In this document: one piece after another, positions 17,041 to 51,384 of the stretch
How positions within the stretch are numbered: the stretch's first letter is position 1
How the letters are laid out: every line of letters begins with the position of its first letter
Assembly (NCBI GenBank): GCA_049324675.1
Contig: JBMONM010000120.1
Location: 8,833 to 72,832 of the forward strand
DNA from: Thermodesulfobacteriota bacterium
GTDB lineage: Bacteria; Desulfobacterota; Desulfovibrionia; Desulfovibrionales; Desulfovibrionaceae
DNA: 64,000 bases
Reading direction: 5' to 3'
Notes under the pieces: generated by a model
Database searches by the model: none
The model's input: the letters and a program-made list of their open reading frames with translations, nothing else
Told to the model about the DNA's origin: nothing
Program-made: the position numbers and the translations under genes

Positions 17041-17119
17041 GGCGGGGCCTTCGCGCAACACGCCGCTCCGGCATAAAACGCGGAAGCGCGGGCGTATCGA
17101 TCGGCCCGCCTCCGGAACG

Positions 17120-29807: not shown

Positions 29808-29847
29808 CGGCGGGCGACGGCGCGATCCTTTCCGGGGAGAAAAACGC

Positions 29848-32001: not shown

Positions 32002-32735
32002 ACGACGCCGCGCCCATGCCCATCGAGGAGGTTTCCGTCATCATCCTGGCCTACAACGACATGGAGGTCGTGGAGGAGAGCGTCCGCTACGTCCATGCCA
32101 CCCTCGGCCGGCTGGCCCGGCGCTTCGAGGTCATCGTGGTCGAGGACTGCAGCACGGACGGCACCCGGGAGATCGTCCGGGCCCTGGAACAGGAGCTTCC
32201 CGAGGTGCGGGCCGTTTATCACGCGAAAAACAGGGGCGTGGGCGACGGCCTGCGGGACGGCTTCCAGGCCGCCCGGTACGACCTGGTCTGCACCAACTGC
32301 GCCGACCTGCCGTTCGACGTGGCGGACCTGGCCCGGGCGGTCCCCGCCATGCTGTCGCAGCAGGCCGACGTCTGCGTCATGGTCCGGCACGACCGCTCGG
32401 CCAATTCCGCGTTCCGCAAGCTGACCTCCTACGTCAACTATCTGATCATACGCCTGCTCTTCAATACCCCGGTGCATGATTACAACTTCGTTCAAATGTA
32501 CAAGCGCGCCGTCTGCCAGTCGATCCCGCTACAGGCAAAAGATGTGTTCGTTCCTCCGGAGCTCATCATAAAGGCCTATCGCGCCGGCCACAAGATCGTC
32601 GAGTTTCGAACGACTTTTCATCCGAGGAAGGCCGGCAGGAGCAAGTACGGCCATCCCAAGCACTTCATCCGGACGTTTCGGGATCAGATTCTTTTTTGGA
32701 CCCGCCTGCGCCTCAAAAAGAGTCCCCATGCCTGA
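31998..32735 (+). CDS. DPM1/ArnC-like GT2 (polyprenyl-phosphate glycosyltransferase candidate), soluble form
   Basis: The ATG at 31998 forms an ATGA overlap with the upstream stop. Contains VSVIILAYNDMEVVEESV...VIVVEDCSTDGTREIV...HAKNRGVGDGLRDGF...CADLPFD...PELIIKAYRAGHKIVEF. Confidence 0.8.
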   Translation: MNDAAPMPIEEVSVIILAYNDMEVVEESVRYVHATLGRLARRFEVIVVEDCSTDGTREIVRALEQELPEVRAVYHAKNRGVGDGLRDGFQAARYDLVCTNCADLPFDVADLARAVPAMLSQQADVCVMVRHDRSANSAFRKLTSYVNYLIIRLLFNTPVHDYNFVQMYKRAVCQSIPLQAKDVFVPPELIIKAYRAGHKIVEFRTTFHPRKAGRSKYGHPKHFIRTFRDQILFWTRLRLKKSPHA

Positions 32736-33492
32736 GCCGAATTACAACGAAAACGACATCGCCTTCCTCAACGCCATAGAAGAGCACCACTTCTGGTACA
32801 GGACCCGTCGGCATCTGCTGAGAACCCTGCTCCGGGACGTTTCCCCGCAGCTTCCCGCCGCGCCGGCGATTCTCGACCTCGGCTGCGGCAACGGCTCCAT
32901 GGTTTCGACCATCCGGGAATACGGGACCTACGTGGGCATCGAATACGCCCGGGAGGCCGCGGCCAACTGCCGGGCCAAGGGCGTCCCGGCCCTGGTCGGC
33001 GACGCCCGGCGCATTCCCCTGCGCACGGATTCCATGGATGTGGTCACGATTCTCGACCTGCTGGAACACGTCGACGACGACCGGGCCGTGCTCGAGGAAT
33101 GCTCCCGGGTGCTCAGGCCCGGCGGCTTCCTGCTGGTCATGGTCCCGGCCTTCATGGCCTTGTGGACCTCCTTCGACGAATATTCCTTCCACAAGCGGCG
33201 GTATTCCCGGGGCCGGCTGTCGCGGTTGCTGCGGGACTCCGGTTTCGTTCCGGCCCGAAAGGGCTACATGTTTTCCTTTCTCTTTCCCGTCCTGTTGTTC
33301 AACAGCCTCCTGGAGCGGATCAGGCCCGGAAAGCCGGATCGCGGACAGGGGTGGCGCCGGCGCCTGGCCCCGCCGCGCCCCGGGGTCAACGGATTGCTTT
33401 GCACGCTGGGAAGACTGGAGACCATGTTCATGCGCCGCGGCCTGGTCCCCTTCGGGACCACCTTCCTGGCCATATGCCGCAACGTCAAATAA
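32728..33492 (+). CDS. Class I SAM methyltransferase (Methyltransf_11/23-like)
   Basis: 254-aa ORF with EEHHFWYRTRR...ILDLGCGNGSM...VTILDLLEHVDDDRAVLEECSRVLRPGGFLLVMVP. Paralog of 39687..40442. Confidence 0.85.
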   Translation: MPEPNYNENDIAFLNAIEEHHFWYRTRRHLLRTLLRDVSPQLPAAPAILDLGCGNGSMVSTIREYGTYVGIEYAREAAANCRAKGVPALVGDARRIPLRTDSMDVVTILDLLEHVDDDRAVLEECSRVLRPGGFLLVMVPAFMALWTSFDEYSFHKRRYSRGRLSRLLRDSGFVPARKGYMFSFLFPVLLFNSLLERIRPGKPDRGQGWRRRLAPPRPGVNGLLCTLGRLETMFMRRGLVPFGTTFLAICRNVK

Positions 33493-33504
33493 ACAGGGGT
33501 CATC

Positions 33505-34449
33505 ATGGACACGCCGTACACCTTCATGCGCGACAAGGACCGGGAGTTTCCCCCGATGGTCATCGTGGACTTCACCAACGTCTGCAACCTGCGGTGCGTG
33601 CACTGCGCCCATCCGGTGATCAAGAAGGAGGCCGGCTACAAGCCGGCGTTCATGAAAAAGGAGCTTTTCAAAAAGATCGTGGATGAAACGGCCGGCCGCG
33701 ACATCCTGCTCATGCGCATCGCCAGCGACGGGGAGAGCCTGCTGCACCCGGACTTTTTCGAGATGATGCACATGGCCAAGGACGCGGGCGTGGCCCCGGT
33801 CAACCTCACGACCAACGGCATGCTGCTCACGCCGGAGACCGGCCGCAGGCTGGTCGACTGCGGCCTGGACATCGTGGACGTGAGCATCGACGCCCACAGC
33901 AAGGACATCTACGAACAGATCCGCCGGGGCGGAAGCTACGACACGGTGGTGGCGAACACCCTTGGGCTGGTTCAGGCGCGCAACGAGGCCGGCAGCTCCA
34001 TGCGCATCTTCGTGAGCATCATCCGCCAGCCCCTCAACGCCCACCAGATCGAGGACTTCAAGGCCTTCTGGGAGCCCAGGGTGGATTTCGTCCTGGTCCG
34101 CAACCTGTGCGACGAGGTCGGCCTGGTGGACATCGAGCCCGTGGAGTCCGTGGCCGTGCCCGAGGTCCGCTGGCCCTGTCCGCAGTTCTGGAAACGCATC
34201 ACCATCACCCATTCCGGCGACGTCCGGTACTGCGTGGAGGACTGGCGCAACATCACGGTCATCGGCAACGTCGGGCGCCAATCCATTGCGGAGATCTGGC
34301 AGGGGGAAACCTACCGGCGGCTGCGGGAACGCCAGCTCAAGGGCGACTACCGGGGCATGGCCCTGTGCGAGGACTGCAAGGACTGGGCAACGGCGCCATG
34401 GGACTTCGGATACGACCGGATCGTCAGGGAGACGACGCGCCCGAAATGA
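33505..34449 (+). CDS. Radical SAM protein with a C-terminal Cys-rich SPASM/twitch-like region
   Basis: 314-aa ORF. VDFTNVCNLRCVHCAH is the CxxxCxxC cluster. GESLLHPDF and TTNG are also present. The C-terminal cysteines are WPCPQFW...VRYCVEDW...CEDCKDW. Confidence 0.9.
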   Translation: MDTPYTFMRDKDREFPPMVIVDFTNVCNLRCVHCAHPVIKKEAGYKPAFMKKELFKKIVDETAGRDILLMRIASDGESLLHPDFFEMMHMAKDAGVAPVNLTTNGMLLTPETGRRLVDCGLDIVDVSIDAHSKDIYEQIRRGGSYDTVVANTLGLVQARNEAGSSMRIFVSIIRQPLNAHQIEDFKAFWEPRVDFVLVRNLCDEVGLVDIEPVESVAVPEVRWPCPQFWKRITITHSGDVRYCVEDWRNITVIGNVGRQSIAEIWQGETYRRLRERQLKGDYRGMALCEDCKDWATAPWDFGYDRIVRETTRPK

Positions 34450-35174
34450 AAAACCCCGGTCAAAAGGCCGGCACCCTGGCCATCATCCAGCCGAGCTTCG
34501 TCCCCTGGCGCGGCTACTTCGACATCATCCGCCGTTCGGATGTCTTCGTCTTCTACGACGACGTGCAATACGAGAAAAACTCCTGGAGAAACCGGAACAA
34601 GATCAAGACGGCGAAGGGCTGGCAGTGGATCACCGTGCCGGTCCTGACCAAGGGCCGCCTGACCCAGGCGATATGCGAGGCCCGGATAAACGACGCGGAG
34701 CCCTGGAGGAAGAAGGTCCTTGGCTCCATCTCCCAGGCCTATTCCAAGGCCCCGTTCTTCAAACAATATTTCCCCCTCGTGGCCGGAAGCGTCACCGACG
34801 GCGGGGAAAGCCTGTCCGATCTGTGCATCGGACTGACCCGGGAGGTGTGCGCCCGCCTCGGCATCCGGACCGCCTTTCTCCGGTCAAGCTCCCTGGGGAT
34901 CGGCACGGAGCTTCGGGGCGCGGATCGCGTCCTGGCCATCTGCAAGGCGCTCGGGGCCGCGCGCTACGTCTCCGGCCCCCGGGCCAGAAGCTACCTCGGG
35001 GACGGGGCGGATTTCGAGGCGGCGGGCGTGGCCCTGGAATACATGACCTACGACTATCCGGAATATCCCCAGTTGCACGGACCCTTCCTTCCGGACATGT
35101 CCATCCTGGATCTGCTTTTCAACTGCGGCGACCAGGCCCCGCGCTACATCTGGGACCGGCCGGACCGGCCTTGA
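34446..35174 (+). CDS. WbqC-family protein (LPS-cluster-associated, function unknown)
   Basis: The ATG at 34446 overlaps the upstream stop (ATGA). LAIIQPSFVPWRGYFDIIRRSDVFVFYDDVQYEKNSWRNRNKIKT..GWQWITVPV matches my memory of the WbqC-like family N-terminus. Confidence 0.75.
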   Translation: MKNPGQKAGTLAIIQPSFVPWRGYFDIIRRSDVFVFYDDVQYEKNSWRNRNKIKTAKGWQWITVPVLTKGRLTQAICEARINDAEPWRKKVLGSISQAYSKAPFFKQYFPLVAGSVTDGGESLSDLCIGLTREVCARLGIRTAFLRSSSLGIGTELRGADRVLAICKALGAARYVSGPRARSYLGDGADFEAAGVALEYMTYDYPEYPQLHGPFLPDMSILDLLFNCGDQAPRYIWDRPDRP

Positions 35175-35210
35175 CGGCGGAAGGTCCCCGGCCGGACGCC
35201 CGTCCGGGAC

Positions 35211-35849
35211 TCAGGACGCAAGGGACAGCCGCATGTCGAACAGGGTCCGCTGTTTCTTGACGGTCTTCAATCCATGGCGGCCCGGAACCTCGGCCATGAT
35301 GCGCCGGCAGTCCCGCAACCACCCGCTGTAGTCATCCCACTCGAACAACAAAATGACCCGGCGATAGCGCAAGGTGCGCGAGACGCCGTGCAGCACGCGC
35401 AGGGTCAGAAAGTCGGCCAGCCGGCGGAAAAGACCGGGCCAGGGCTCGGAAATATGGATGACGCCGCCGGGTCCGAGCACCCGGACGAGTTCGGGAAAAA
35501 GCCGCCCGACATCGATGTGGTGCAGGAAGTCGGCCAGGTACAGGGCGTCGAAGGCGGCGTCGGCAAAGGGCAGCCGGAAGGCGTCGGCGCAGGCCCGGGC
35601 CGACCCGGAGGCGCGCGGCAGCAGCTCCATGGAGATGTCGATGCCGAACACCCGCTGGTAGCCGAGTTCGGCAAAGGCCCGCTGATTGAGGCCTTCCCCG
35701 CAGCCGACCTCCAGAATCCGGGCGCTTTTCGGGATGCCGAAGGAACGGATCGTGGCCTTGCGCGGCCCGATGGCCTTGTCCACGGAAACGAAGGCCTCGT
35801 TCCAGTCCTCGATGGTGAGCCCGTGGGTGTTTCGTGTGGAATCAGTCAT
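35211..35849 (-). CDS. Class I SAM methyltransferase
   Basis: 212-aa ORF with ILEVGCGEGLN...GIDIS...FDALYLADFLHHI...VRVLGPGGVIHISEP. Confidence 0.85.
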   Translation of the reverse strand: MTDSTRNTHGLTIEDWNEAFVSVDKAIGPRKATIRSFGIPKSARILEVGCGEGLNQRAFAELGYQRVFGIDISMELLPRASGSARACADAFRLPFADAAFDALYLADFLHHIDVGRLFPELVRVLGPGGVIHISEPWPGLFRRLADFLTLRVLHGVSRTLRYRRVILLFEWDDYSGWLRDCRRIMAEVPGRHGLKTVKKQRTLFDMRLSLAS

Positions 35850-36915
35850 GTCCCTTGAACGCTATGGTAATGACGTTGGGTCGTTCGGAAAAGGAGTCCT
35901 TGAAGCCCAGGGAGTTGTCGCAGTACCGACAGCTGGAGAACTGCCCGCGGTTTTTTAAAATCCCCCGGCGAAAGGCGTTGAACCCGGGGGAGCCCCAGCC
36001 GTCGCGGACCGTGGCCCCCTTCTCCCGCAGGGTCGCCATGGTCGGGGGATAGAGCCAGTCGTAGCAGCACGGCAAGAGCCGCTGGTCCGAGGTCAGGGCC
36101 GGCGCGACCCACAGGCCGTGGCAGTGGTTTTTCAGGGAGTGCGGTTCGTATTTGGCCGTGATCTCGATCTCATCCGGGGTGGGGGTGCGCCTGGGGGTGC
36201 CTTCGTACACGTAGTCGGTATTGACGTAGCGCGGATGCAGGTCGACCTGCATGGCCTCGGCCATCTTTTTGATGTCGGGCAATTCGTGCCTGTTCTCCGG
36301 GGTCAGCAGGGCCCGGAAGGCCAGCCGCGGGGTTTTCGATCCCGTGCGCTCCTTGGCGGCGTTGATCTTGCGCACGTTCTCCCGGACATTGTCCAGATTG
36401 CCGCAGCGATGGTATTTGCCGTAGTTGTCCTGGGTCGCGCCGGAAATGGAGATATACAGGGTGTCCAGCCCCGAGGCCACGACCTGCTCCCCCCAGTCCT
36501 CCGGGGTCTTGTAGCTGCCGTTGGTGCTGGTCCAGACCGCGATACGGCTGTCCGCGGCATGGCGGATCATCTTGAAGATGTCCGGATGCAGGAACGGTTC
36601 GCCGCTCATTTGCAGGATCAAAAACATCAGGGAGTCTTTGACGCTGTCCACATGGCGCCTGTAGTCCTCAAGCGGCATGGCCACATGCTCCACGTGGGCC
36701 TGCTTGGCCGGAACCCAGCACCCGGCGCAGCGCAGATTGCAGTAGTTCACGGGTTCGACCCACAACGCCGCCGGGCCGTAAGGCGCCCTGGGGATGCGCA
36801 AAAACGCGCAGGCCATGTTGGCGGACAGCTTGAAAAGCTTGCCCGGCGTGACCTGCCCCTTGAACAAGGCGGTGACCATGAAGCGCGAGAAATAGGTCAG
36901 ACTTTTCCAATTCAC
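35842..36915 (-). CDS. Radical SAM protein
   Basis: Track ORF 35842..37044 trimmed. VEPVNYCNLRCAGCWV is the CxxxCxxC cluster. SGEPFLHPD and TSTNG are present, and the C-terminus has Cys pairs (LLPCCYDW, SSCRYCDN). The preferred start is GTG 36915, preceded by GAGGG and 13 nt after the upstream stop. Alternatives are ATG 36879 or ATG 36972. Confidence 0.8.
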   Translation of the reverse strand: MNWKSLTYFSRFMVTALFKGQVTPGKLFKLSANMACAFLRIPRAPYGPAALWVEPVNYCNLRCAGCWVPAKQAHVEHVAMPLEDYRRHVDSVKDSLMFLILQMSGEPFLHPDIFKMIRHAADSRIAVWTSTNGSYKTPEDWGEQVVASGLDTLYISISGATQDNYGKYHRCGNLDNVRENVRKINAAKERTGSKTPRLAFRALLTPENRHELPDIKKMAEAMQVDLHPRYVNTDYVYEGTPRRTPTPDEIEITAKYEPHSLKNHCHGLWVAPALTSDQRLLPCCYDWLYPPTMATLREKGATVRDGWGSPGFNAFRRGILKNRGQFSSCRYCDNSLGFKDSFSERPNVITIAFKGHD

Positions 36916-36928
36916 GGTCGAGGTGCCC

Positions 36929-38524
36929 TCATGCCGGCTTGGCAGTGTTTTTGTCCATGACCACAACCACATACGTGAACAGGTCAAAAGGGGTGTGCGA
37001 GGCCCGCCTGAGGGAAAACCCGTGCCGGCCGCACAAGGCTTCAACCTTCTTTCTGCTGGTGAAAAGCGTCACTTCACCAGGATACAAAGCGACCTTCCTG
37101 CGCCGCGCCAGACCGAGCAGGGTTTCCAGACAGACCGCGCAGGCCTTGTACCAGCCGTAACGCGGCGGCCACAAAAGCAGGCAGCGCCCCCCCGGCTTGA
37201 GCACCCTGCGAAATTCCCCGAGAACGACGTCCAGTTCCGGCTCGGTGAAATGTTCCATGACCCCCAGGTTCCAGATGCCGTCGAGACTGCCGGCGGCAAA
37301 GGGAAGCCTGTACATGTCCCCCTGCACCGCGGCGTCGATGGCCGGCATGGTCCTGGCCCGCACGAGCGGCGGAAAGGAAAAATCCAGGCAGATCAAGGTG
37401 CGTCCCCCGGCCGGCAGCCGGGCGCTGGTCTCGGACGACCCCGAGCCCATTTCGACGAAAATCCCTTGTTCGGGAAAATACCGGGCGAAAAGCCGCCGCA
37501 GTCCCCGGGCGATGATATTCGTGCGGATGAAGGACAGGGCCGTGTGGGCCGGGGCCGAGGCGAAATGGGAGGTCCAGAAGCCGTCCCAGGCCTCGGCCGT
37601 ATTGGCCGGGACCGGTTCCCCGGCCGCGTTGCCGTCCGGCCGGGGCGGCCGGGTCCGCGTCCCGGCATTGATCCAGGCCACGGCGGCCAGGGCCAGGGCG
37701 GCCCAGGTCGCCAGGCCGCTTCCGATATTCCCGGAAAGGACCAGGCCGGCGGCGAAAAACGGCAGCGTGAGCCCCATGGCCTTGTCGTGGATCAGATAGA
37801 GGTCCCGGATGACGGCAAAGGCCACGGAGGCGGCGAACACCAGGACGGCGGGCGTCCAGGCCGGGGAAACGCCCAGGGAGGCCACGCCGAACGCCCCGAG
37901 GACGGCGGCCAGGGCGCACAGTCCCACCCGCAGGGGGCGCAGGGCCGGTTCCGGGTCCAGATACTGCATGATCCCGTAGGCCAGGGCCAGGCACAGGACC
38001 CCGCCGGCCAGCGGCGTGAAGGCCAGCGGGATCAGCCAGCAGCAGGCCGCGAGCCGGCCGTGGGGCAGAAATTCGAGCAGCGGCAGGGCGGCCGCGGCAA
38101 GGCCGGACGACAGCGGCATCCCGCCGGCGACCATGCCTCCCAGCACGGCCAGGGCGTTGAGCGTCGCGCCGACCAGCCCGGCGGGAAGCCGGCCCGGAGA
38201 GGGCCGCGGCGGGGGGGATGCGCCCGCGCCGAGGATGCGCCCGGCGAGAAGCCGGGCATTGCGGTCGTTGGGCGTGGCCAGGCAGCGGTCGTTCTCGGCG
38301 GCGGCCGTGGCCGTGTCGCCCCGGCGATAGAAATCGAACTCGTCCCCGGGAACGGACAGTTCATGGGCCTGTCCCTGAAACTCCCAGCGGACCAGATACC
38401 CCTCCGGCGTGGCGGTGACGGCCAGGGACCGCGCCGCCTCGGCGTACCGTCCGGGGGAGGCCGCTTCCCGGCAGGCGTGCAGATGCCTGAGCAGGAGGTG
38501 GCGCAGGGCCTTTTCCTTTCTCAC
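36929..38524 (-). CDS. Membrane protein with a C-terminal class I SAM methyltransferase domain
   Basis: Track ORF 36929..38611 trimmed to GTG 38524. That GTG forms a GTGA overlap with the upstream stop and is preceded by GGAGGGG. A soluble N-terminal region of roughly 100 aa comes first. Several hydrophobic helices follow (LPAGLVGATLNALAVLGGMVAGG...VLVFAASVAFAVI...). The methyltransferase domain is last: FVEMGSGSSETS...GVMEHFTEPELDVVLGEFRRVLKPGGRCLLLWP. Confidence 0.75.
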   Translation of the reverse strand: MRKEKALRHLLLRHLHACREAASPGRYAEAARSLAVTATPEGYLVRWEFQGQAHELSVPGDEFDFYRRGDTATAAAENDRCLATPNDRNARLLAGRILGAGASPPPRPSPGRLPAGLVGATLNALAVLGGMVAGGMPLSSGLAAAALPLLEFLPHGRLAACCWLIPLAFTPLAGGVLCLALAYGIMQYLDPEPALRPLRVGLCALAAVLGAFGVASLGVSPAWTPAVLVFAASVAFAVIRDLYLIHDKAMGLTLPFFAAGLVLSGNIGSGLATWAALALAAVAWINAGTRTRPPRPDGNAAGEPVPANTAEAWDGFWTSHFASAPAHTALSFIRTNIIARGLRRLFARYFPEQGIFVEMGSGSSETSARLPAGGRTLICLDFSFPPLVRARTMPAIDAAVQGDMYRLPFAAGSLDGIWNLGVMEHFTEPELDVVLGEFRRVLKPGGRCLLLWPPRYGWYKACAVCLETLLGLARRRKVALYPGEVTLFTSRKKVEALCGRHGFSLRRASHTPFDLFTYVVVVMDKNTAKPA

Positions 38525-39687
38525 GACCGCCCCTCCCCGTGGAATCCGGCCATGATCTTGGCCGCGAGTCGGCGCAATTCCGGCTCGGCAAAGGGACGGG
38601 CAAGGCCGCAACCCCGGTTGAACAGCGACATCCTGTGGAACATGGGCCGAAGAAACCGGGCGGTCAGGGTAATTTCCGGATAGCTGCCGTACATGCAGCC
38701 CGGGCAGGTGGCGGTAAAGGGGGAGATGGCCTCATGGATCTCGCCGCTGCGGTAGGATCTGACGAAATCCGGGGCATGGACCGGAAAGTCCCGGCCGATC
38801 TTGTAGTCGCAGCAGGGCTGGATGTTTCCGTTGGGCTCGATGGCGAAGTAAAGATTGGGGGAGTCGCAGACGCCATGGTTGCGCCGGCGCCAGCGCGTGG
38901 GTTCGTCGGCCAGAAACCTGTAGATGTCGTCCAGGTATTCGTCGCAGTCATAGAGATGCTTGCCCCCGCGTCGCAGGACCTTGAGCTCGTCAAGGACCTG
39001 CCGCAGCCTGGGGAGCTTTTCCCGGGGAAAGGCGCAGACCCCGTCGTCGTCGAAACTCCGGAACCCGCGCGGCTGGTCCGGCGTGGTGACATGGCACGGC
39101 ACCAGGGAGACCCACCAGCCGATGCGCGTGGCGAACTCGACGACCGCCGCAAGGTGCTCGAGGTTGCGGGGCATGAGCACCGTGCCGAAAAATCCCTGCC
39201 CGCCCTGGGGAAAGAGCTCGCTGACCATGGCCACGGCCTTGAGGGTGCGCTCGAAGCTGTGGGGCATGCCGTTTATGGTGTCCTGGGTGGAGGTGTCGAG
39301 GCTGTCCAGGGAGATGCTGATATCGTGGCCGCCGGCCTCGATGCAGGCCCGCATGGCCGCCCGCGAGGCCAGGCCGTTGGTCTGCATCCGGACATGGATG
39401 CCGTTGTCGACAAAGGCCTTGATGATTTCCGGCAGGTCCCGGCGCACGAACGGCTCGCCGCCGATGAGCAGGACGATGCACACCCCGATTTCCGCGAGAT
39501 TCTCGGCCATGGCCCGGATCTGACGGATGTTCATTTCCGGGGCGTCGGCCTGGGCGTAGACGATGTTGCACTGCTCGCAATAGTGGTTGCAGCGGGCGGT
39601 GATATAATACTGGACGTACAGCGGCCGGCTCTTGGTGACGAGAGACCTGGCCAGCTTTTTTTGCAACTCGTGACTGAAAAAGGCCAT
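38521..39687 (-). CDS. Radical SAM protein
   Basis: 388 aa from ATG 39687, which overlaps the upstream stop (TGATG). YYITARCNHYCEQCNI is the CxxxCxxC cluster. LIGGEPFVRRD and QTNG are present. C-terminal cysteines are IQPCCDY and ATCPGCMY. Confidence 0.9.
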   Translation of the reverse strand: MAFFSHELQKKLARSLVTKSRPLYVQYYITARCNHYCEQCNIVYAQADAPEMNIRQIRAMAENLAEIGVCIVLLIGGEPFVRRDLPEIIKAFVDNGIHVRMQTNGLASRAAMRACIEAGGHDISISLDSLDTSTQDTINGMPHSFERTLKAVAMVSELFPQGGQGFFGTVLMPRNLEHLAAVVEFATRIGWWVSLVPCHVTTPDQPRGFRSFDDDGVCAFPREKLPRLRQVLDELKVLRRGGKHLYDCDEYLDDIYRFLADEPTRWRRRNHGVCDSPNLYFAIEPNGNIQPCCDYKIGRDFPVHAPDFVRSYRSGEIHEAISPFTATCPGCMYGSYPEITLTARFLRPMFHRMSLFNRGCGLARPFAEPELRRLAAKIMAGFHGEGRS

Positions 39688-40442
39688 CACCCGACCTCGT
39701 TTCTGCGCGCCGCGGCAAGGAGCGAGGCCCCGAGCGGCGGCGACGGCAGGATTTTCCGTTCCAGGGCCCCGACCCTGCCGAGCAGCGCCCCCGCAAGCCG
39801 GCCGGGAGGCTGGAAGCCGCGGGCCACGATGGCCGCCGTGTCGGACGCAAACGCCGTCAGGCAGTTGCGCATGGCCAACAGCGGGAGCAGCCCCATCCCC
39901 CAGTACCGCAAGCGCTCCACCCTGCAGCCCGCCCCCTCGACCACCGGCTGCAGGGTGGCTTTCGAATACCGGCGCAGGTGGCCGACCGCCCTGTCGTAGC
40001 GTCCCCGGAACACCTCCAGGGCGGGGATGTTCAGAAAGACGAAGCCGCCGGGCCGGACATGGGCCACGGCGGTCTCCAGAAACGCCCGGTCGTCGGCGAT
40101 GTGCTCCAGGACGTCGAAGAGCAGCACGGCATCGTAGCGTCCCAGCATCTCGGCGCGTTTTTCAAACACGTCGTAGGCGAAGGCCCGTCCCCGCAACGCG
40201 GGATTGGCGGCCACGGCATGGTCGCAGGTGTCCACGCCGTCGACCACCCAGGCCGAACAGGCCTCGATCTGCCGGCGCAGGATACCCTGGCCGCAGCCGA
40301 CGTCCAAGACACGCAGGGGCCGCTCCGGCAGGTCCCCGAAGTCGCGCAAAAGCGCGCGGAAGGCGGCCAGCCGCCATTGAAACCAGAAGTGGTCGGGCGA
40401 GGAGATCTCGTACCACTGATCCGGGAAGGGTGCGGCGCTCAC
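39687..40442 (-). CDS. Class I SAM methyltransferase
   Basis: GTG start at 40442 in a GTGA overlap with the upstream stop, with GGAG 7 nt upstream. Contains SPDHFWFQWRL...VLDVGCGQGIL...VLLFDVLEHIADDRAFLETAVAHVRPGGFVFLNIP. Paralog of 32728..33492. Confidence 0.85.
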   Translation of the reverse strand: MSAAPFPDQWYEISSPDHFWFQWRLAAFRALLRDFGDLPERPLRVLDVGCGQGILRRQIEACSAWVVDGVDTCDHAVAANPALRGRAFAYDVFEKRAEMLGRYDAVLLFDVLEHIADDRAFLETAVAHVRPGGFVFLNIPALEVFRGRYDRAVGHLRRYSKATLQPVVEGAGCRVERLRYWGMGLLPLLAMRNCLTAFASDTAAIVARGFQPPGRLAGALLGRVGALERKILPSPPLGASLLAAARRNEVG

Positions 40443-41428
40443 CGGGGCTCCATGCTGACGACTTCCCTGACGATGAATGTCGGCCGCCCCTTCACCTCCA
40501 GGTACATCCTGCCCAGGTACGATCCGAGGACATAGAGGCCGAACAGCACGATGCTGTTGGTGAAAAGCATGACCGGCAGCATCCAGGACCTGTCGGAGAG
40601 CCAGCCCGGAAACCCGGCGGCCAGCATGGCCAGGGACAGCACGAACAGGACCAGGGCGGCGAACTGGGAAACCCGCAGGGGCATGATGCTCATGGAGGCG
40701 AGGCCTTCCGTGGCCAGGTGGTAGAGCTTGCGGAAGGTGTACTTGGTTTCTCCCTGGGCGCGTTCCGGCCGGTGGTATTCGAGGCGGGCCGTTTCGTAGC
40801 CGACCCAGGCCCGCAGGCCGCGCCCGAAACGCAGCCGCTCCGGCAGCATGTTCAGCGCCCCGACCACCGGACGGCCCATGAGCCCGAAGTCGCCGCTGTC
40901 CAGCGGCACCTCCACCGAGGACAAAAACCGGTAGAGCCGGTAGAACGCCGCGTAACAGAATTTTTTGACCGGCGAGCCCTGCCGCGACGCCCGCTGGCCG
41001 TACACCGTTTCCGCCCCCCGGCGCCAGAGGGCGACCATGTCCAGCAGAAGTTCCGGCGGGTCCTGGAGGTCGGCGTCGATGATGGCCGTCACGTCCGCAT
41101 CGCTGAAGGCGATGCCGGCGCTGATCGCCGCCTGGTGACCGAAATTTCTTGTGAAGATAATGAGTTGCATGGGGTTTTTCCGGCCGCCGAGCTCCCGGAG
41201 CAGGGCCGCGGAATCGTCGCGGCTGCCGTCGTCCACAAAGAGATACCGCGCCTTTTTGAGGTGGTGCCGGCGCATGTTTTCCGGGCTGAAGACTTCATCC
41301 AGCCTTTTCACGAGAAGCGGGATGACGTCCGCTTCGTTGTAGATGGGCACGATGATGTCAATACTGATATCAAGATCGGAACGGATATCGAGGGGTATGC
41401 ATTGAGGCGCGACGTTTTGACGCTGCAC
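40439..41428 (-). CDS. GtrB/CsbB/ArnC-like GT2 with C-terminal TM helices (polyprenyl-phosphate sugar synthase candidate)
   Basis: Track ORF 40439..41461 starts at a TTG. I prefer GTG 41428, which has AGGAG 7 nt upstream. Contains ISIDIIVPIYNEADVIPLLVKRL...FVDDGSRDDS...FTRNFGHQAAISAGI...IDADLQDPPE. Two C-terminal hydrophobic helices follow (MPLRVSQFAALVLFVLSLAMLAA; VMLFTNSIVLFGLYVLGSY), and then the typical ...VKGRPTFIVRE ending. Confidence 0.85.
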   Translation of the reverse strand: MQRQNVAPQCIPLDIRSDLDISIDIIVPIYNEADVIPLLVKRLDEVFSPENMRRHHLKKARYLFVDDGSRDDSAALLRELGGRKNPMQLIIFTRNFGHQAAISAGIAFSDADVTAIIDADLQDPPELLLDMVALWRRGAETVYGQRASRQGSPVKKFCYAAFYRLYRFLSSVEVPLDSGDFGLMGRPVVGALNMLPERLRFGRGLRAWVGYETARLEYHRPERAQGETKYTFRKLYHLATEGLASMSIMPLRVSQFAALVLFVLSLAMLAAGFPGWLSDRSWMLPVMLFTNSIVLFGLYVLGSYLGRMYLEVKGRPTFIVREVVSMEPR

Positions 41429-41533
41429 TATCCAGCTCCTGACGCGATATCTTTGATGCAAGCGGCGCAGGCATGCTTCTTTTCCTGTCCACCATCCCCG
41501 GTCATCCCTCGGCCGCGTGCCCCCTGAAGGCGT

Positions 41534-43708
41534 TCATGCGCGGGCCTTCCCCGCCCGAAAGCGGTCCGCCCGGCCTTTGACGGCGATGGCGAGCGGGATG
41601 ACGGTCAAAAGCCCAAGCATGCCCCAGGACAGATAGGCCAGCCAGAGTCGCAGGCGCGGCCGGTAGCGGATGTCCACCGAGACGATGCCCGAGGGTATCT
41701 CCACGGCTACAAGAGCGTCAAGGGCTTCCCTGGTTTCGAGGAACGTCCGCCCTCCCTGCCGGTCCGTGCCCACCGCCTGCCAGCCGGGCCGATACATCTG
41801 GCTGACGAGCAGCCAGCGGGCGGCGTCCGAGGGGGCGAATTCCGCGACCACGCCGTCTTCCACAAGCCTGGCCCGGGTGTCGCCCCGCCAGCGGGACAGG
41901 ACCGGGCCGGCGTCGGCGCAGAGCAGGCGGTCGTGGGGGCATCCCGGCACGGACGACAGCCTGAGATCGGGCGTGTCGGCCGAGACGAACGCCGCGAAGG
42001 GCCAGGCCCGGGGATTCTCGTAGACCAGAAGCGTCGACTTTTCCCCCGTCGGACAGGTCAGGACCAGACTGGTCCCCGGGGGCTGTGGCTCGGTGTCCAG
42101 GGCCAGGATGTAGCGCACGCCCAGGACGTCCAGGAGCGGGCTATTCTCCGCCAGGCTCCTGTCGGGGACGATGTGGCTGTGCATGAGCATGGTCGTCGGC
42201 GGATACACGGGCACGTACACGCCCTTGAAGTAGCCGTTTACGATCGGAAGCCCGTGGTACCCGAGCGTGTTGTGCCAGAGGCCCAGGCGGATCAGGTCGT
42301 AGGGGAAGCCGCGCCGGCCTCCGATATCCCCGGCGAACACGAATCGTCCGGGCGACTGTGCGTACAGCCCGCGAAGCCTTTCGATCAGGGGCGAGGGATC
42401 AAGAATGCTGGCGGTGACCTGCTTGGCGGCGGGCATGAAGGAAAGGGGCCTTCCCCCGGCGTGGACCAGGGCCGAGGAAAGGTTTTGCAGCCAGAACGGG
42501 GAGGCGCCCGCGGCCATGAGCAGGAAGTGCAGGGCGAGAAGGGCCGTGGCCCCCAGCCGCCAGGTCCGGCCAAGGCCCCGAAGGCGGTCGATGGCCGCCC
42601 CGGCCAGAAAAAGCGCGGCAATGATGGCCGGATCACGAAAGGCGATGAGCCAGGCGATGACGCCGCCGCACAGGGATTTGGGCAGATGGACGAGCAGGAC
42701 GCCCCCCAGGAAGACCGCGGCAAAGGCCCGCCGGTCCCGGGAGGCGAGGTTCCCCTCCCAGATTCCCACGATCGCCAGGACCACGAATATCGGCCCGAAC
42801 CAGAAGTTGCGGACCCCGGCCTGCAGGTTGGCGCGCAGGAAGGACTCGTCCCCCCACAGCACCAGGGGCTTGACGAACATCGCCCACAGTTCGCGCGGCG
42901 CAAACAGGGTGTAGGGAACGTACAGGCGGTCGATCGCCGGAGGGAACAAGGACATTTCCGAATACAGGGTGAAGGCCCGAAAGCCCACGGCCAGGCAGAA
43001 CCCCAGTCCGGCCGCGGCCAGCCAGGCCGCCTGCCTTGCGCCCGGGCGCAGCGCGGCGACGAAAACCGCGAGCATGACGCCATAGGCGGCCACCACCCCG
43101 TTGTGCCCGTTGAGCATGGCCAGGGCCGCGAACAGGGCCAGCAGGCAGGCGCCGGACAGGGATTTCAGGGGCGTGTCGGCGTCACGTACGGCCAGAATGA
43201 AATAGAACAGGATCGGCAGGACGCTCCAGACGTGAAAAACCTCGGGCCAGAAGTCGACCAGCCCGTAATTGAGATGCGGCGCGCACAGTAAAAACGTGGC
43301 CGCGCAACACAGGGAGGCGAACCAGGAGAGCCTGACGCGTCTGGCCGCGGCATAGACGAAACAGCTCCCGACGGTCATCTGCAGCCAGTAAAAAAGGGCC
43401 AGACAGATCTTCATCGGCACAAGCTGCAGCATGAAAATGATGGGATGGAAGGAGAGGGTCGAGGCGAAAGGCTGCGGCATCCCCAGGCCGAGCATGGTCG
43501 TCCAGAGGGTGACGCCCCCCTGGGTCAGAAAACGGGCCTGGGCCGCCGTGGAATAGATCGTTGAAAAAAAACTCTCCAGGTCCCCGGAGATGATGAAAAA
43601 ACACGGTCCGTAAACGACGGCCGAGAAAAGGGCCAGGGCCGGAAACACGACAACCGGGGAAGGAGCCTTCCCGGCGCGGCCTCCGGAAGCGCCCTGCTCA
43701 CAGCACAT
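41534..43708 (-). CDS. Large polytopic membrane protein, YfhO-like / GT-C-fold glycosyltransferase candidate
   Basis: 724-aa ORF. The N-terminal roughly 430 aa are almost entirely hydrophobic helices. The C-terminal roughly 290 aa look soluble, followed by one final TM (WLAYLSWGMLGLLTVIPLAIAV). This architecture, and adjacency to a GtrB/CsbB-like GT2, fits the YfhO family. The assignment is by architecture only. Confidence 0.7.
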   Translation of the reverse strand: MCCEQGASGGRAGKAPSPVVVFPALALFSAVVYGPCFFIISGDLESFFSTIYSTAAQARFLTQGGVTLWTTMLGLGMPQPFASTLSFHPIIFMLQLVPMKICLALFYWLQMTVGSCFVYAAARRVRLSWFASLCCAATFLLCAPHLNYGLVDFWPEVFHVWSVLPILFYFILAVRDADTPLKSLSGACLLALFAALAMLNGHNGVVAAYGVMLAVFVAALRPGARQAAWLAAAGLGFCLAVGFRAFTLYSEMSLFPPAIDRLYVPYTLFAPRELWAMFVKPLVLWGDESFLRANLQAGVRNFWFGPIFVVLAIVGIWEGNLASRDRRAFAAVFLGGVLLVHLPKSLCGGVIAWLIAFRDPAIIAALFLAGAAIDRLRGLGRTWRLGATALLALHFLLMAAGASPFWLQNLSSALVHAGGRPLSFMPAAKQVTASILDPSPLIERLRGLYAQSPGRFVFAGDIGGRRGFPYDLIRLGLWHNTLGYHGLPIVNGYFKGVYVPVYPPTTMLMHSHIVPDRSLAENSPLLDVLGVRYILALDTEPQPPGTSLVLTCPTGEKSTLLVYENPRAWPFAAFVSADTPDLRLSSVPGCPHDRLLCADAGPVLSRWRGDTRARLVEDGVVAEFAPSDAARWLLVSQMYRPGWQAVGTDRQGGRTFLETREALDALVAVEIPSGIVSVDIRYRPRLRLWLAYLSWGMLGLLTVIPLAIAVKGRADRFRAGKARA

Positions 43709-44297
43709 TGGCGTACACCCCGCGCACCTCGGCCGGCTGCACGCACAGGTAGGTCAGGGTCTGGCGCTGGGTGGCGTGCCCGAACACGGTCATAAGCGTG
43801 GGGATGTCCACCCCGAAACTCACCCGCTGGTGATAGCCCCAGGTCTTGCGCAGGGTGTGCGTGCCGTACCGGCCCCGAAGCCCCACGGCCCGGCACCAGC
43901 CCTTGATCAGCCGGTTGAGCCAGCTCGGGGTCATCCGCCCCCGCCGACCCAAAAAAAGCGGCCCGGACTCGTCAAGGCCCGGCCCCTCCAGAATCCCGCC
44001 CGGTCCGGCCAACACCTCGCGACAGGCCCGGTTGAACACCAGCCGCCGGACCTTGCCGGTCTTGTGCTCGCGGATCGCCGCGCCGCGCTCGCCCCCGGCC
44101 AGGATCTCCCGGGCCTGCCCGACCGTCAGGGCCAGAAGATCCCCGGCCCGCAGCGCGGTGTTGATCCCGACCACGAACAGGGCCAGGTCGCGCGGCCGGT
44201 CCTTGAGCAGAAACCGGATGGCCGTGATCGCCTCCAGGCTGGTGATCGGCTCCACCGTGAGCGTGCTGCCCTTTCGCGGATGGTTTTTTGCGGCCAT
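43698..44297 (-). CDS. Short tyrosine recombinase (phage-integrase catalytic domain only, FimB/FimE-sized)
   Basis: Track ORF 43698..44402 trimmed to ATG 44297, which has AAGGGG 5 nt upstream. All catalytic-signature residues are visible: INTALRAGDLL (Arg), HKTGKVRRLVF (Lys), GTHTLRKTWGY (HxxR), VFGHATQRQTLTYL (His, Tyr). There is no N-terminal SAM-like DNA-binding domain. The product is 199 aa. Confidence 0.85.
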   Translation of the reverse strand: MAAKNHPRKGSTLTVEPITSLEAITAIRFLLKDRPRDLALFVVGINTALRAGDLLALTVGQAREILAGGERGAAIREHKTGKVRRLVFNRACREVLAGPGGILEGPGLDESGPLFLGRRGRMTPSWLNRLIKGWCRAVGLRGRYGTHTLRKTWGYHQRVSFGVDIPTLMTVFGHATQRQTLTYLCVQPAEVRGVYANVL

Positions 44298-44317
44298 GCG
44301 ACCCCTTCTTTTTTCGT

Positions 44318-44328
44318 GCGGTTTTGCC
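44318..44328. repeat. Left arm of a perfect 11-bp inverted repeat (GCGGTTTTGCC)
   Basis: Read directly. Its reverse complement GGCAAAACCGC occurs at 44466-44476. This arm lies 21 nt upstream of the recombinase ATG. Confidence 0.9.
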
Positions 44329-44368
44329 CATTCTGCATACAAAACCGGACGGATACCGCAAGGGTTTT

Positions 44369-44396
44369 TTGACCTTGTCGCTAACATGTCGATATT
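44369..44396 (+). promoter_or_regulatory. Sigma70-like promoter TTGACC-16 nt-GATATT, pointing rightward (away from the recombinase in this orientation)
   Basis: ttgacc is at 44369-44374 and gatatt at 44391-44396. No plus-strand gene lies downstream. As drawn it would transcribe antisense to the 3' end of 44607..45602. Confidence 0.4.
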
Positions 44397-44418
44397 TTTC
44401 ATTTTTTTGACGGGTGGT

Positions 44419-47511: not shown

Positions 47512-47537
47512 GGGTACACCCTTTTGCCGGGGGCGGA

Positions 47538-51187: not shown

Positions 51188-51384
51188 GGCGCGGGGGATG
51201 GGTTTTAGTGGGATGCCGCGTGATTACGGCGGATTCGCCTGGGCCTGGGCTCTAGCACAGGAACCCTGGCCCGGCAAGCGCGGTCCGGGGCGGCTTCACA
51301 ACCCGGCATGTTCACTCTATGGTGCGCCTTCATGCCGCTCGTGTGCGAAGGCGCACAGGAGCCCTTGTTGAAACAGGGGGAACG

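What the first reader, a model, noticed from the sequence alone, without database searches (positions are those of the whole stretch)
32728..43708. Radical-SAM and methyltransferase-dense decoration module wired to a GtrB/CsbB-type GT2 and a YfhO-like membrane protein
These 11 kb contain the following genes:
- **Radical SAM proteins (three).** 33505-34449 has CNLRCVHC plus a Cys-rich SPASM-like tail. 35842-36915 has CNLRCAGC. 38521-39687 has CNHYCEQC.
- **Class I SAM methyltransferases (four).** These are 32728-33492, 35211-35849, the C-terminal domain of the membrane protein 36929-38524, and 39687-40442. The first and last are paralogs sharing an HFW(Y/F) N-terminal motif.
- **Other genes.** A WbqC-family protein, a polyprenyl-phosphate-type GT2 (40439-41428) and a 724-aa YfhO-like protein (41534-43708).

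The minus-strand genes are chained by GTGA/TGATG overlaps, so they are very likely expressed as a unit.

The known paradigm has a GtrB/CsbB enzyme loading a sugar on polyprenyl phosphate, followed by transfer outside the cell by YfhO/GtrC-type GT-C enzymes. That explains only two of these genes. I know of no described pathway in which a lipid-linked or nucleotide sugar passes through three radical SAM enzymes and four methyltransferases. I saw no B12-binding domains. I also saw no small precursor-peptide ORFs next to the SPASM-type enzyme, so a RiPP explanation is unsupported.
Basis: partly seen in the sequence, partly recalled or inferred. Interest (0 to 1): 0.75.

Follow-up and report, generated by a model that had tools for sequence, protein, structure and literature searches.

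The report
Radical-SAM-extended lipid-linked sugar decoration operons
Two back-to-back operons in a sulfate-reducer's surface-sugar locus pair lipid-carrier sugar-loading enzymes with radical SAM and methyl-transfer enzymes, and one such set is an unstudied cassette found in more than a dozen bacterial phyla.

Summary

It is not one 11-kb module. It is two convergent operons with separate evolutionary distributions.

- **Minus strand (43708-35211).** This is a self-contained seven-gene unit: GT-C-fold transferase, GtrB-like GT2, MT, rSAM3, a novel N-domain/TM/MT fusion, rSAM2 and MT. It recurs intact in an unrelated genomic context.
- **Its core.** GT2 + MT + rSAM3 + a ~75-aa undescribed domain occurs in 73 genome loci from about 15 phyla, including SAR11. 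In one relative rSAM3 is fused to the membrane domain.
- **Plus strand (29746-35174).** This is an Arn-like formyltransferase/aminotransferase + ArnC-like GT2 + MT + BtrN-like rSAM1 + WbqC block. It is also conserved elsewhere.

No precursor peptide, no B12 domain and no literature on either block was found.

Best reading: these are multi-component transmembrane glycosylation systems in which membrane-associated rSAM/MT pairs tailor the sugar, probably on polyprenyl phosphate, before GT-C transfer. The chemistry is unknown.

Verdict: a new variant of a known kind. Interest 0.62.

The parts
41534..43708 (-). 724-aa GT-C-fold glycosyltransferase candidate: about 12 TM helices, a beta-rich periplasmic domain and a C-terminal TM helix. 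First gene of the minus-strand operon.
   Evidence: AF2 model has pLDDT 68 and pTM 0.74. The top 22 Foldseek PDB hits are all GT-C enzymes: ArnT 5f15 (E 5.7e-6), AftD, STT3, PglB, Emb, Pmt4. Invariant D43 and E45 follow TM1. Pfam YfhO is only weak. Only 8 homologues were found.
40439..41428 (-). GtrB/CsbB/ArnC-type GT2, a polyprenyl-phosphate glycosyltransferase with two C-terminal TM helices.
   Evidence: PF00535 5.3e-22. PgfS 1.1e-52 and ArnC 6.9e-36 over full length, both below the equivalog cut-offs. TM helices at 256-274 and 283-301. Orthologues lie next to rSAM3 in 56 of 67 loci.
39687..40442 (-). Class I SAM methyltransferase (Methyltransf_23, HFW motif). Part of the conserved core cassette.
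   Evidence: PF13489 3.9e-19. Orthologues at 37-45% identity lie beside rSAM3 in L002-L004. The cluster occurs in 22 loci.
38521..39687 (-). rSAM3: radical SAM enzyme with CNHYCEQC and a C-terminal 5-Cys (twitch-like) auxiliary-cluster region. Signature gene of the conserved cassette.
   Evidence: PF04055 1.3e-23. Invariant C33/C37/C40 plus C274, C292, C328, C331. Homologues are 54-68% identical across phyla. 73 genome loci. Best structural match is BlsE 7vob, E 2.4e-11.
36929..38524 (-). Three-part fusion: an undescribed ~75-aa N-domain (ALRHLLL...FDFYRRGD, about 38290-38524), a 5-6 TM helix region, and a C-terminal class I MT domain (about 36929-37515).
   Evidence: The N-domain has no Pfam or PDB relative. 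It follows rSAM3 in about 45 loci in four architectures. It is fused to rSAM3 in L085.
35842..36915 (-). rSAM2: radical SAM enzyme (CNLRCAGC) with a weak SPASM-like tail. Paralogue of rSAM1.
   Evidence: 26% identity to rSAM1, E 1e-22. It co-occurs with rSAM3, GT2 and MT in L080, L084 and the 56%-identical L085.
35211..35849 (-). Class I MT of the 'MTb' type, the type that sits beside rSAM3 in 41 other loci. Last gene of the minus-strand operon.
   Evidence: PF08241 1.2e-19. Cluster membership.
29746..32001 (+). Formyltransferase-DegT aminotransferase fusion (ArnA-N-like plus ArnB/PseC-like).
   Evidence: Formyl_trans_N 5.6e-23 and DegT 7.7e-126. ArnA 4.1e-40, ArnB 4.3e-104, PseC 1.1e-105, all below equivalog cut-offs.
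31986..32735 (+). 249-aa GT2 without TM helices. The ArnC catalytic domain is its best match.
   Evidence: PF00535 3.4e-21. ArnC 1.6e-19 over profile positions 4-213, PpgS 3.6e-6. No TM helices. The same gene order occurs in L083.
32728..33492 (+). Class I MT (HFW motif), paralogue of 39687-40442.
33505..34449 (+). rSAM1: radical SAM/SPASM enzyme whose C-terminal auxiliary-cluster domain aligns with BtrN.
   Evidence: The BtrN alignment conserves the YC.ED and LC..C cysteines. The family is 45-59% identical in many MAGs.
34446..35174 (+). WbqC-family protein of unknown function. Always follows rSAM1 in the closest relatives.
   Evidence: PF08889 1.1e-78. rSAM1-WbqC pairs occur in L081 and L083. 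No PDB relative.
43698..44402 (-). Tyrosine-recombinase-like gene abutting the operon. Possible trace of how the seven-gene unit arrived.
   Evidence: Phage_integrase 4.6e-10. It overlaps the 724-aa gene start by 11 nt. It is absent from the L080 copy of the operon.

Best explanation
The region is two convergent operons inside a very large surface-polysaccharide locus of a Desulfovibrio-like Thermodesulfobacteriota MAG. Both follow the same logic: a GtrB/ArnC-family GT2 is followed directly by an HFW-type methyltransferase and then a twitch/SPASM-type radical SAM enzyme.

**Minus strand (43708-35211).** This is a self-contained multi-component transmembrane glycosylation system.
1. The GT2 loads a monosaccharide from a nucleotide sugar onto polyprenyl phosphate at the cytoplasmic face. 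Inferred from family.
2. rSAM3 is held at the membrane by the N-domain/TM protein. It performs a radical C-H abstraction on that sugar. Inferred. Candidate chemistries are oxidation, epimerisation, decarboxylation or deoxygenation, as in BlsE, BtrN or DesII.
3. The methyltransferases add methyl groups.
4. rSAM2 and MT2 add a second edit.
5. The edited lipid-linked sugar is flipped, possibly by the TM region of the fusion protein.
6. The 724-aa GT-C enzyme transfers it onto an acceptor glycan outside the membrane.

**Plus strand (29746-35174).** This is an Arn-like route.
1. The aminotransferase makes a 4-amino sugar and the formyltransferase makes it a 4-formamido sugar.
2. An ArnC-like GT2 transfers it.
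3. A BtrN-like radical dehydrogenase (rSAM1), an MT and WbqC elaborate it further.

**Shown:** gene identities, folds, operon structure, conservation and co-occurrence. **Inferred:** the substrates, the lipid-linked stage of tailoring, and the chemistry.
For: **Context.** The whole window is a glycan locus: ManC, Gmd, three further DegT genes, several GT2s, a SASA esterase and sulfate activation.

**The operon is a unit.**
- DNA homology with L080 covers exactly 35224-43621, at 82% identity.
- In L080 the operon sits among unrelated genes.

**Core cassette.**
- rSAM3 relatives are 54-68% identical across phyla.
- They occur in 73 genome loci.
- A GtrB-like GT2 lies within 4 kb in 38 of 44 loci with full flanks, and in 56 of 67 loci overall.
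- MT clusters are present in 41 and 22 loci, and SDR genes in 41.
- Neighbours include LPG_synthase_TM flippase-like proteins and PMT_2/DUF6798 membrane proteins.

**Membrane tethering.**
- L085 encodes rSAM3 + N-domain + TM as one 707-aa protein.
- The N-domain is otherwise fused to TM, to MT, to TM+MT, or stands alone.

**Folds.**
- The 724-aa protein matches only GT-C enzymes at the top of the structure search.
- The best sequence and structural match of rSAM3 is the sugar-nucleoside decarboxylase BlsE.
- The rSAM1 tail aligns with BtrN, including the cluster cysteines.

**Parallel case.** In Desulfovibrio sp. A2 the GT-C homologue sits beside an MT, a B12-type rSAM, a DPPR-synthase-like UbiA (2.1e-23) and a HAD protein.

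- The multi-component glycosylation paradigm (PMC8035078, PMC11127046).
- Modification of sugars while on the lipid: ArnD and DprE1/E2 (my knowledge).
- The AglP methyltransferase of the Haloferax N-glycosylation pathway (PMC3871713).
- rSAM editing of lipid-attached sugars by HpnJ and calditol synthase (PMC13459092).
Against: - No biochemical data exist for any component.
- All NCBIfam hits are far below the curated cut-offs, so specific activities are not assigned.
- The structural neighbours of rSAM3 also include the peptide maturases SkfB, PqqE and SuiB, at E-values only about 100-fold weaker than BlsE.
- No GtrA/Wzx-type flippase is encoded in the operon.
- The plus-strand GT2 lacks TM helices, so its polyprenyl-phosphate acceptor is a guess.
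- Gemmatimonadota-type loci lack the N-domain, so it is not obligatory.
- Tailoring could occur on the nucleotide sugar rather than on the lipid.
- The 724-aa model is of moderate confidence and built from 9 sequences.
Confidence: 0.55

Rival explanations
1. The radical SAM and methyltransferase enzymes tailor soluble nucleotide sugars in the cytoplasm, as in classical deoxy- and amino-sugar pathways. The GT2 and GT-C enzymes then simply carry the finished sugar across the membrane.
For: - Characterised sugar rSAMs (BlsE, BtrN, DesII) act on soluble substrates, and these are among the best matches.
- rSAM1, rSAM2 and rSAM3 themselves have no TM helices.
- DegT and SDR genes for NDP-sugar chemistry are adjacent.
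Against: - rSAM3 is fused to a polytopic membrane domain in L085.
- Its partner domain is usually membrane-embedded.
- Gene order puts the GT2 before the MT and rSAM in both operons.
- The cassette travels with the GT2 rather than with any one NDP-sugar pathway.
Confidence: 0.2
2. The cassette makes a modified membrane glycolipid as an end product. The rSAM would rearrange or contract the lipid-attached sugar, as proposed for HpnJ (hopanoid cyclitol ether) and calditol synthase. The product would not be a donor for glycan decoration.
For: - There is precedent for rSAM action on lipid-attached sugars (PMC13459092).
- rSAM3 is membrane-tethered.
- There are weak hits to the lipid-modifying rSAMs Tes/GDGT-MAS and HpnH.
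- Not every rSAM3 locus shows an obvious GT-C gene.
Against: - In this window and in L080 the operon starts with a GT-C-fold transferase.
- Many relatives have PMT_2/DUF6798 proteins nearby.
- No NCBIfam HpnJ family appears among the listed matches (best 25 shown per protein).
- The loci are embedded in polysaccharide gene clusters.
Confidence: 0.12
3. rSAM3 is a protein or peptide maturase. The conserved ~75-aa domain encoded right after it (F.FY.RGD motif) would be its substrate or recognition element. The GT2 and MT would then act on that protein or be unrelated neighbours.
For: - The domain is consistently adjacent in about 45 loci, sometimes as a stand-alone protein of 101-126 aa.
- Structural neighbours include SkfB, PqqE, SuiB and anSME.
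- The best NCBIfam hits include several maturases.
Against: - The domain is fused N-terminally to polytopic membrane domains, to methyltransferases, and to the C-terminus of rSAM3 itself. That is atypical for a precursor.
- The RGD motif is not kept in the L085 fusion.
- The domain is absent from Gemmatimonadota loci.
- No conserved small ORF exists in the flanks of rSAM3 in the genome loci scanned.
- rSAM3 lacks an RRE domain.
- Association with the GtrB-like GT2 is as strong as association with the domain.
Confidence: 0.08
4. The rSAMs are cofactor or heme-pathway enzymes (AhbD/NirJ/MoaA-like, or tungsten-cofactor maturase-like) that merely sit in this locus.
For: The top NCBIfam hits are AhbD, NirJ2 and W_rSAM_matur.
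Against: - Scores are 76-97 bits against cut-offs of 380-500.
- Matches cover only the shared rSAM core.
- No heme or cofactor genes are nearby.
- Neighbourhoods are consistently glycan-related.
Confidence: 0.02

Closest known systems
Three-/multi-component transmembrane glycosylation systems (GtrB/CsbB + GtrA/GtcA + GtrC/YfhO/GT-C). PMC8035078, PMC5836110.
   Same: A membrane-linked GT2 with two C-terminal TM helices, plus a large GT-C-fold membrane protein encoded together in a glycan locus.
   Different: Five extra genes lie between and after them: two rSAMs, three MT domains, and a novel N-domain/TM protein. There is no GtrA-type flippase gene. The GT-C protein fails the Pfam YfhO threshold.
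Pentofuranose three-component systems and mycobacterial DPR-to-DPA conversion (PMC11127046).
   Same: The lipid-linked monosaccharide donor is diversified by auxiliary enzymes before GT-C transfer. The Desulfovibrio sp. A2 relative of the GT-C protein sits beside a DPPR-synthase-like UbiA and a HAD protein.
   Different: There the auxiliary enzymes are epimerases or oxidoreductases. Here they are radical SAM enzymes and methyltransferases, and the donor synthase is a GT2 rather than a UbiA-type PRTase.
Arn pathway (ArnA formyltransferase, ArnB, ArnC, ArnD, ArnT).
   Same: The plus-strand block has formyltransferase + DegT aminotransferase + ArnC-like GT2 in a row. Arn also edits the sugar (deformylation) after transfer to undecaprenyl phosphate (my knowledge).
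   Different: All scores are below the equivalog cut-offs. The GT2 lacks TM helices. No ArnD or ArnA dehydrogenase domain is present. MT, rSAM and WbqC follow instead.
Sugar-modifying twitch/SPASM radical SAM enzymes: BlsE, BtrN, DesII.
   Same: BlsE is the best sequence and structural match of rSAM3. The BtrN auxiliary-cluster domain, with its cysteines, aligns to rSAM1. BtrN works with a DegT-family aminotransferase (my knowledge), and DegT genes flank rSAM1 relatives.
   Different: Identity is only 15-20%. The known enzymes act on soluble antibiotic intermediates, not on surface-glycan precursors, and they have no membrane partner.
HpnI/HpnK/HpnJ (hopanoid cyclitol ether) and calditol synthase (PMC13459092).
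   Same: A glycosyltransferase puts a sugar on a lipid, and a radical SAM enzyme then edits that sugar.
   Different: The rSAM families are different, with no NCBIfam HpnJ family among the listed matches. The lipid here is inferred to be a carrier rather than the final product.

Membership tests
Multi-component transmembrane glycosylation system (GtrB/CsbB + flippase + GT-C) | Membrane-linked GT-A/GT2 enzyme of the polyprenyl-phosphate glycosyltransferase type | tested here: met
   PF00535. Full-length PgfS 1.1e-52 and ArnC 6.9e-36. Two C-terminal TM helices.
Multi-component transmembrane glycosylation system (GtrB/CsbB + flippase + GT-C) | Polytopic GT-C-fold glycosyltransferase encoded with it | tested here: met
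   The AF2 model's top 22 PDB hits are all GT-C (ArnT E 5.7e-6). Invariant D43/E45 follow TM1. Model confidence is moderate.
Multi-component transmembrane glycosylation system (GtrB/CsbB + flippase + GT-C) | GtrA- or Wzx-type flippase | tested here: inconclusive
   No operon gene hits GtrA or Wzx families. The TM region of 36929-38524 is an untested candidate. In known systems the flippase is often encoded elsewhere (PMC8035078).
Multi-component transmembrane glycosylation system (GtrB/CsbB + flippase + GT-C) | Formation of a C55-P-monosaccharide and its extracytoplasmic transfer | not testable with these tools
   Needs biochemistry.
YfhO family (PF09586) | Score at or above the Pfam gathering threshold | tested here: not met
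   15.8 bits against 28.5, at the C-terminal 60 residues only. Five of nine relatives give weak hits, best 4.9e-6. The overall architecture (TM bundle + periplasmic domain + C-terminal TM) is similar.
Radical SAM superfamily with SPASM/twitch auxiliary domain | CxxxCxxC motif and PF04055 above threshold | tested here: met
   All three proteins. Motifs were read directly.
Radical SAM superfamily with SPASM/twitch auxiliary domain | C-terminal Cys-rich auxiliary-cluster domain | tested here: met
   rSAM1 SPASM 53.7 bits (cut-off 21.5). rSAM2 19.8 bits, just below. rSAM3 has no Pfam hit but has conserved C274/C292/C293/C328/C331.
BtrN-type radical SAM dehydrogenase | BtrN-like auxiliary-cluster domain with conserved cysteines | tested here: met
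   rSAM1 residues 232-308 align with BtrN 176-251, whole-sequence E 1.6e-11. YCVED and LCEDC align with PCFED and LCKNC.
BtrN-type radical SAM dehydrogenase | Oxidation of a secondary alcohol on an aminocyclitol or sugar | not testable with these tools
   Activity assay needed.
RiPP / peptide-modifying rSAM maturase | Conserved adjacent precursor-peptide gene | tested here: not met
   No conserved small ORF within 3.5 kb of rSAM3 in the genome loci scanned; every conserved cluster lay inside or antisense to known genes. Gene junctions around rSAM1 and rSAM2 leave no room.
RiPP / peptide-modifying rSAM maturase | RRE/PqqD-like recognition domain | tested here: inconclusive
   No Pfam RRE hit in the rSAMs. 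The adjacent N-domain has no Pfam or PDB relative and its fold was not modelled.
Arn (Ara4N) pathway | ArnA-FT, ArnB and ArnC equivalogs above NCBIfam cut-offs | tested here: not met
   138 bits against 777, 348 against 631, and 70 against 529. It works like Arn but is not a member.
Class B (cobalamin) radical SAM methylases | N-terminal B12-binding domain | tested here: not met
   No PF02310 in any window rSAM. Relatives' loci do carry separate B12-rSAMs.

The most novel reading that the evidence does not exclude
rSAM3 and its partner N-domain define an unrecognised class of membrane-tethered radical SAM enzymes found across many phyla. These enzymes would edit a monosaccharide while it is attached to polyprenyl phosphate. 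GT-C enzymes would then install those sugars on surface glycans of lineages from SAR11 to Verrucomicrobiota and CPR bacteria.
Probability: 0.4. Interest if true: 0.8.

Novelty: new variant of a known kind. Interest (0 to 1): 0.62.

Why it matters
Periplasmic 'three-component' glycosylation is a main source of surface-antigen diversity. Its lipid-linked donors are thought to be simple sugars, at most epimerised or deformylated.

A conserved cassette that adds radical chemistry and methylation to that step would imply a hidden layer of sugar diversity. It occurs in about 15 phyla, including abundant ocean and soil lineages. It would also define a new substrate class for radical SAM enzymes, namely polyprenyl-phosphate sugars.

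It gives a concrete, compact target for reconstitution: four to seven genes, one of which is a natural rSAM-membrane fusion. It also shows that many uncultured bacteria carry glycan loci rich in rSAM/MT pairs, none of which has a known product.

Tried and rejected
- **Exact look-up of rSAM3 with a GTG-extended start** found nothing. The ATG-start rSAM1 look-up worked.
- **Literature** searches on WbqC, rSAM with GtrB or polyprenyl, rSAM with undecaprenyl or GT-C, rSAM/SPASM with O-antigen, and rSAM with dolichol gave no description of these cassettes.
- **Profile search of the 724-aa family against PDB sequences** found nothing. The fold search was needed.
- **WbqC** has no solved relative.
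- **N-domain** profile against PDB and Pfam gave only noise.
- **tblastn with the window's 724-aa protein, rSAM1 and WbqC** found nothing in the 73 rSAM3 loci. These genes are therefore not part of the conserved core.
- **Rfam** found no riboswitch or other RNA in the window.
- **Glycyl-radical-type reading of the RGD motif** was considered and dropped. The motif does not fit the consensus as I recall it, and rSAM3 is not of the activase type (not tested).
- **Cofactor or heme roles** suggested by the top NCBIfam names were rejected on the score gaps and the context.

Full report
**Source and setting.** The window is 63-72% G+C. Its rSAM3 protein is 100% identical to one from a 'MAG: Thermodesulfobacteriota bacterium'. 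rSAM1 is 99% identical to a 'MAG: Desulfovibrio sp.' protein.

The whole window is a surface-glycan locus. It carries:
- ManC and Gmd;
- several GT2 genes;
- three further DegT aminotransferases;
- a LegB-like dehydratase;
- an ATP-sulfurylase/APS-kinase fusion;
- a TM+SASA esterase.

**Observation.** The overlapping junctions are real.

Two refinements are needed:
- 'YfhO-like' rests on a sub-threshold Pfam hit (15.8 against 28.5 bits). Weak hits occur in five of nine relatives.
A formyltransferase-DegT fusion (29746-32001) and a 249-aa GT2 (31986-32735) overlap into MT1.

**Two operons, not one module.** The plus-strand genes run from 29746 to 35174. The minus-strand genes run from 43708 to 35211. 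They converge on a 36-nt spacer.

DNA comparison with a metagenomic contig (L080) shows 82% identity over exactly 35224-43621, which is the seven minus-strand genes. In L080 they lie between a sigma-54 regulator and Fe-S/CCG genes, followed only by a SASA esterase. In the window a tyrosine-recombinase-like gene abuts the operon. The seven genes are therefore a transferable unit.

The plus-strand order DegT-GT2-MT-rSAM1-WbqC recurs independently in L083. The rSAM1-WbqC pair recurs in L081. Both lie in other polysaccharide loci that also carry B12-type rSAMs.

**The conserved core.** rSAM3 has 1,835 homologues at E ≤ 1e-5. The best 120 are all at least 54% identical to it. Against 50%-identity cluster representatives the family collapses to few clusters, with 151 at E ≤ 1e-30.

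A genome scan returned 73 loci. They come from:
- Myxococcota and Bdellovibrionota;
- Elusimicrobiota and Planctomycetota;
- Alpha- and Gammaproteobacteria, including Rhodospirillum sp. A1_3_36 and Pelagibacter HIMB1746;
- Desulfobacterota and Acidobacteriota;
- Verrucomicrobiota and Actinomycetota;
- Gemmatimonadota and Latescibacterota;
- Chloroflexota and Auribacterota;
- Chitinivibrionales and a Woesebacteria MAG.

Clustering all ORFs around rSAM3 gave these neighbours:

| Neighbour | Loci |
|---|---|
| GtrB-like GT2 | 56 of 67 (38 of 44 with ≥4 kb on both sides) |
| MTb-type methyltransferase | 41 |
| MT23-type methyltransferase | 22 |
| SDR genes, often an Epimerase+adh_short fusion | 41 |

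LPG_synthase_TM flippase-like and PMT_2/DUF6798 membrane proteins also occur nearby. The window carries both MT types. MT2 (35211-35849) clusters with MTb. The C-terminal MT of the fusion also resembles the MTb genes.

**A new partner domain.** Directly downstream of rSAM3, about 45 loci encode a ~75-aa domain. Its consensus is ALRhLLL...SLxV...VxW...FxFYxRGD. It has no Pfam or PDB relative.

It appears in five arrangements:
- fused to 5-6 TM helices, giving proteins of about 300-400 aa;
- alone, as proteins of 101-126 aa (Chthoniobacter, L042, L056);
- fused to an MT (L059, L060, L063, L065, L072);
- fused to TM plus MT (the window, 36929-38524);
- in L085, fused to the C-terminus of rSAM3 itself, giving a 707-aa rSAM-N-domain-TM protein.

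Gemmatimonadota-type loci lack the domain. The fusions argue that it couples rSAM3 to the membrane and to the MT, rather than being a substrate. No conserved small ORF exists near rSAM3.

**Folds.** The rSAM3 model (pLDDT 79) matches BlsE best, at E 2.4e-11 and TM-score 0.69 normalised to the target. Next come SkfB, PqqE, SuiB, MoaA, viperins, AbmM and DesII. BlsE is also the best PDB sequence hit.

The C-terminal domain of rSAM1 aligns with the auxiliary-cluster domain of BtrN, cysteines included. rSAM2 is a paralogue of rSAM1. It travels with rSAM3 in L080, L084 and the 56%-identical L085.

The 724-aa model (pLDDT 68, pTM 0.74) has about 12 TM helices, a beta-rich periplasmic domain and a terminal TM helix. 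Its top 22 PDB matches are all GT-C enzymes, led by ArnT. Its family is tiny, with 8 members. In Desulfovibrio sp. A2 the homologue sits beside an MT, a B12-type rSAM, a DPPR-synthase-like UbiA and a HAD protein. That is the same logic built from different parts.

**Mechanism proposed.** Both operons have the order GT2, then HFW-type MT, then rSAM.

For the minus strand I infer the following sequence:
1. The GT2 loads a sugar onto polyprenyl phosphate.
2. Membrane-held rSAM3 and the MTs tailor it.
3. rSAM2 and MT2 perform a second edit.
4. The product is flipped.
5. The GT-C enzyme transfers it to an acceptor glycan.

For the plus strand, the ArnA-N/ArnB/ArnC-like trio suggests a 4-formamido sugar placed on a carrier. 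A BtrN-like radical dehydrogenase, an MT and WbqC would then elaborate it. By analogy, BtrN works with a DegT-family aminotransferase in 2-deoxystreptamine synthesis (my knowledge).

Several enzymes already modify lipid-attached sugars:
- ArnD and DprE1/E2 (my knowledge);
- the auxiliary epimerases of the pentofuranose systems (PMC11127046);
- the AglP methyltransferase of the Haloferax Agl pathway (PMC3871713);
- the rSAMs HpnJ and calditol synthase (PMC13459092).

The specific chemistry remains open.

**Comparison and novelty.** This is the multi-component transmembrane glycosylation paradigm (PMC8035078) with an added radical-SAM/methyltransferase layer and a new adaptor domain.

No NCBIfam model reaches its cut-off. 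No paper in the searchable library describes the cassette. I therefore rate it a new variant of a known kind.

It is interesting mainly because the core cassette is so conserved and so widespread, and because it suggests radical chemistry on polyprenyl-phosphate sugars.

Noticed in passing
43698-44402 (-): A 234-aa tyrosine-recombinase-like gene (Phage_integrase 4.6e-10) overlaps the start of the 724-aa gene by 11 nt. It separates two GtrB-type modules and is absent from the L080 copy of the operon.
   Followed up: partly
44607-48584 (-): A second GtrB/PgfS-like GT2 (PgfS 3e-53, two C-terminal TM helices) lies here. The N-terminal ~300 codons of its long ORF look non-coding. It is preceded by a DegT aminotransferase and a LegB-like 4,6-dehydratase. 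This is a third polyprenyl-phosphate-sugar-type module in the locus.
   Followed up: partly
27261-29807 (+); L080 18648-19403: An 848-aa protein has about 9 TM helices and a C-terminal SASA carbohydrate esterase domain. A stand-alone SASA homologue (73% DNA identity) directly follows the seven-gene operon in L080. This hints at a functional link, for example O-acetyl handling.
   Followed up: partly
14728-17040 (+): An ATP-sulfurylase/APS-kinase fusion lies inside the glycan locus, suggesting a sulfated surface polysaccharide.
   Followed up: no
16994-19039 (+) and 51256-53214 (+): Two large polytopic membrane proteins (681 and 652 aa, 8-9 hydrophobic segments) have no Pfam hit. They may be further GT-C, polymerase or ligase-type enzymes.
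   Followed up: no
L085 10254-12377: A natural fusion of rSAM3 with the N-domain and TM region gives a 707-aa protein. It sits in a 40% G+C metagenomic contig, next to rSAM2, GT2, MTs and a B12-type rSAM.
   Followed up: yes
L083 10534-12921; L079 13114-15638: L083 encodes a 795-aa B12-rSAM fused to a class I methyltransferase, in an rSAM1/WbqC locus. In Desulfovibrio sp. A2 (L079) a B12-type rSAM, a DPPR-synthase-like UbiA and a HAD protein lie next to the GT-C homologue. rSAM-MT coupling therefore recurs with non-homologous parts.
   Followed up: partly
L029 12371-14080 and about 20 other rSAM3 loci: A ~570-aa fusion of an NAD-epimerase-like domain and a short-chain dehydrogenase domain is frequent near rSAM3. 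It may be a redox partner, as AprD3 is for AprD4 or DprE2 for DprE1.
   Followed up: no
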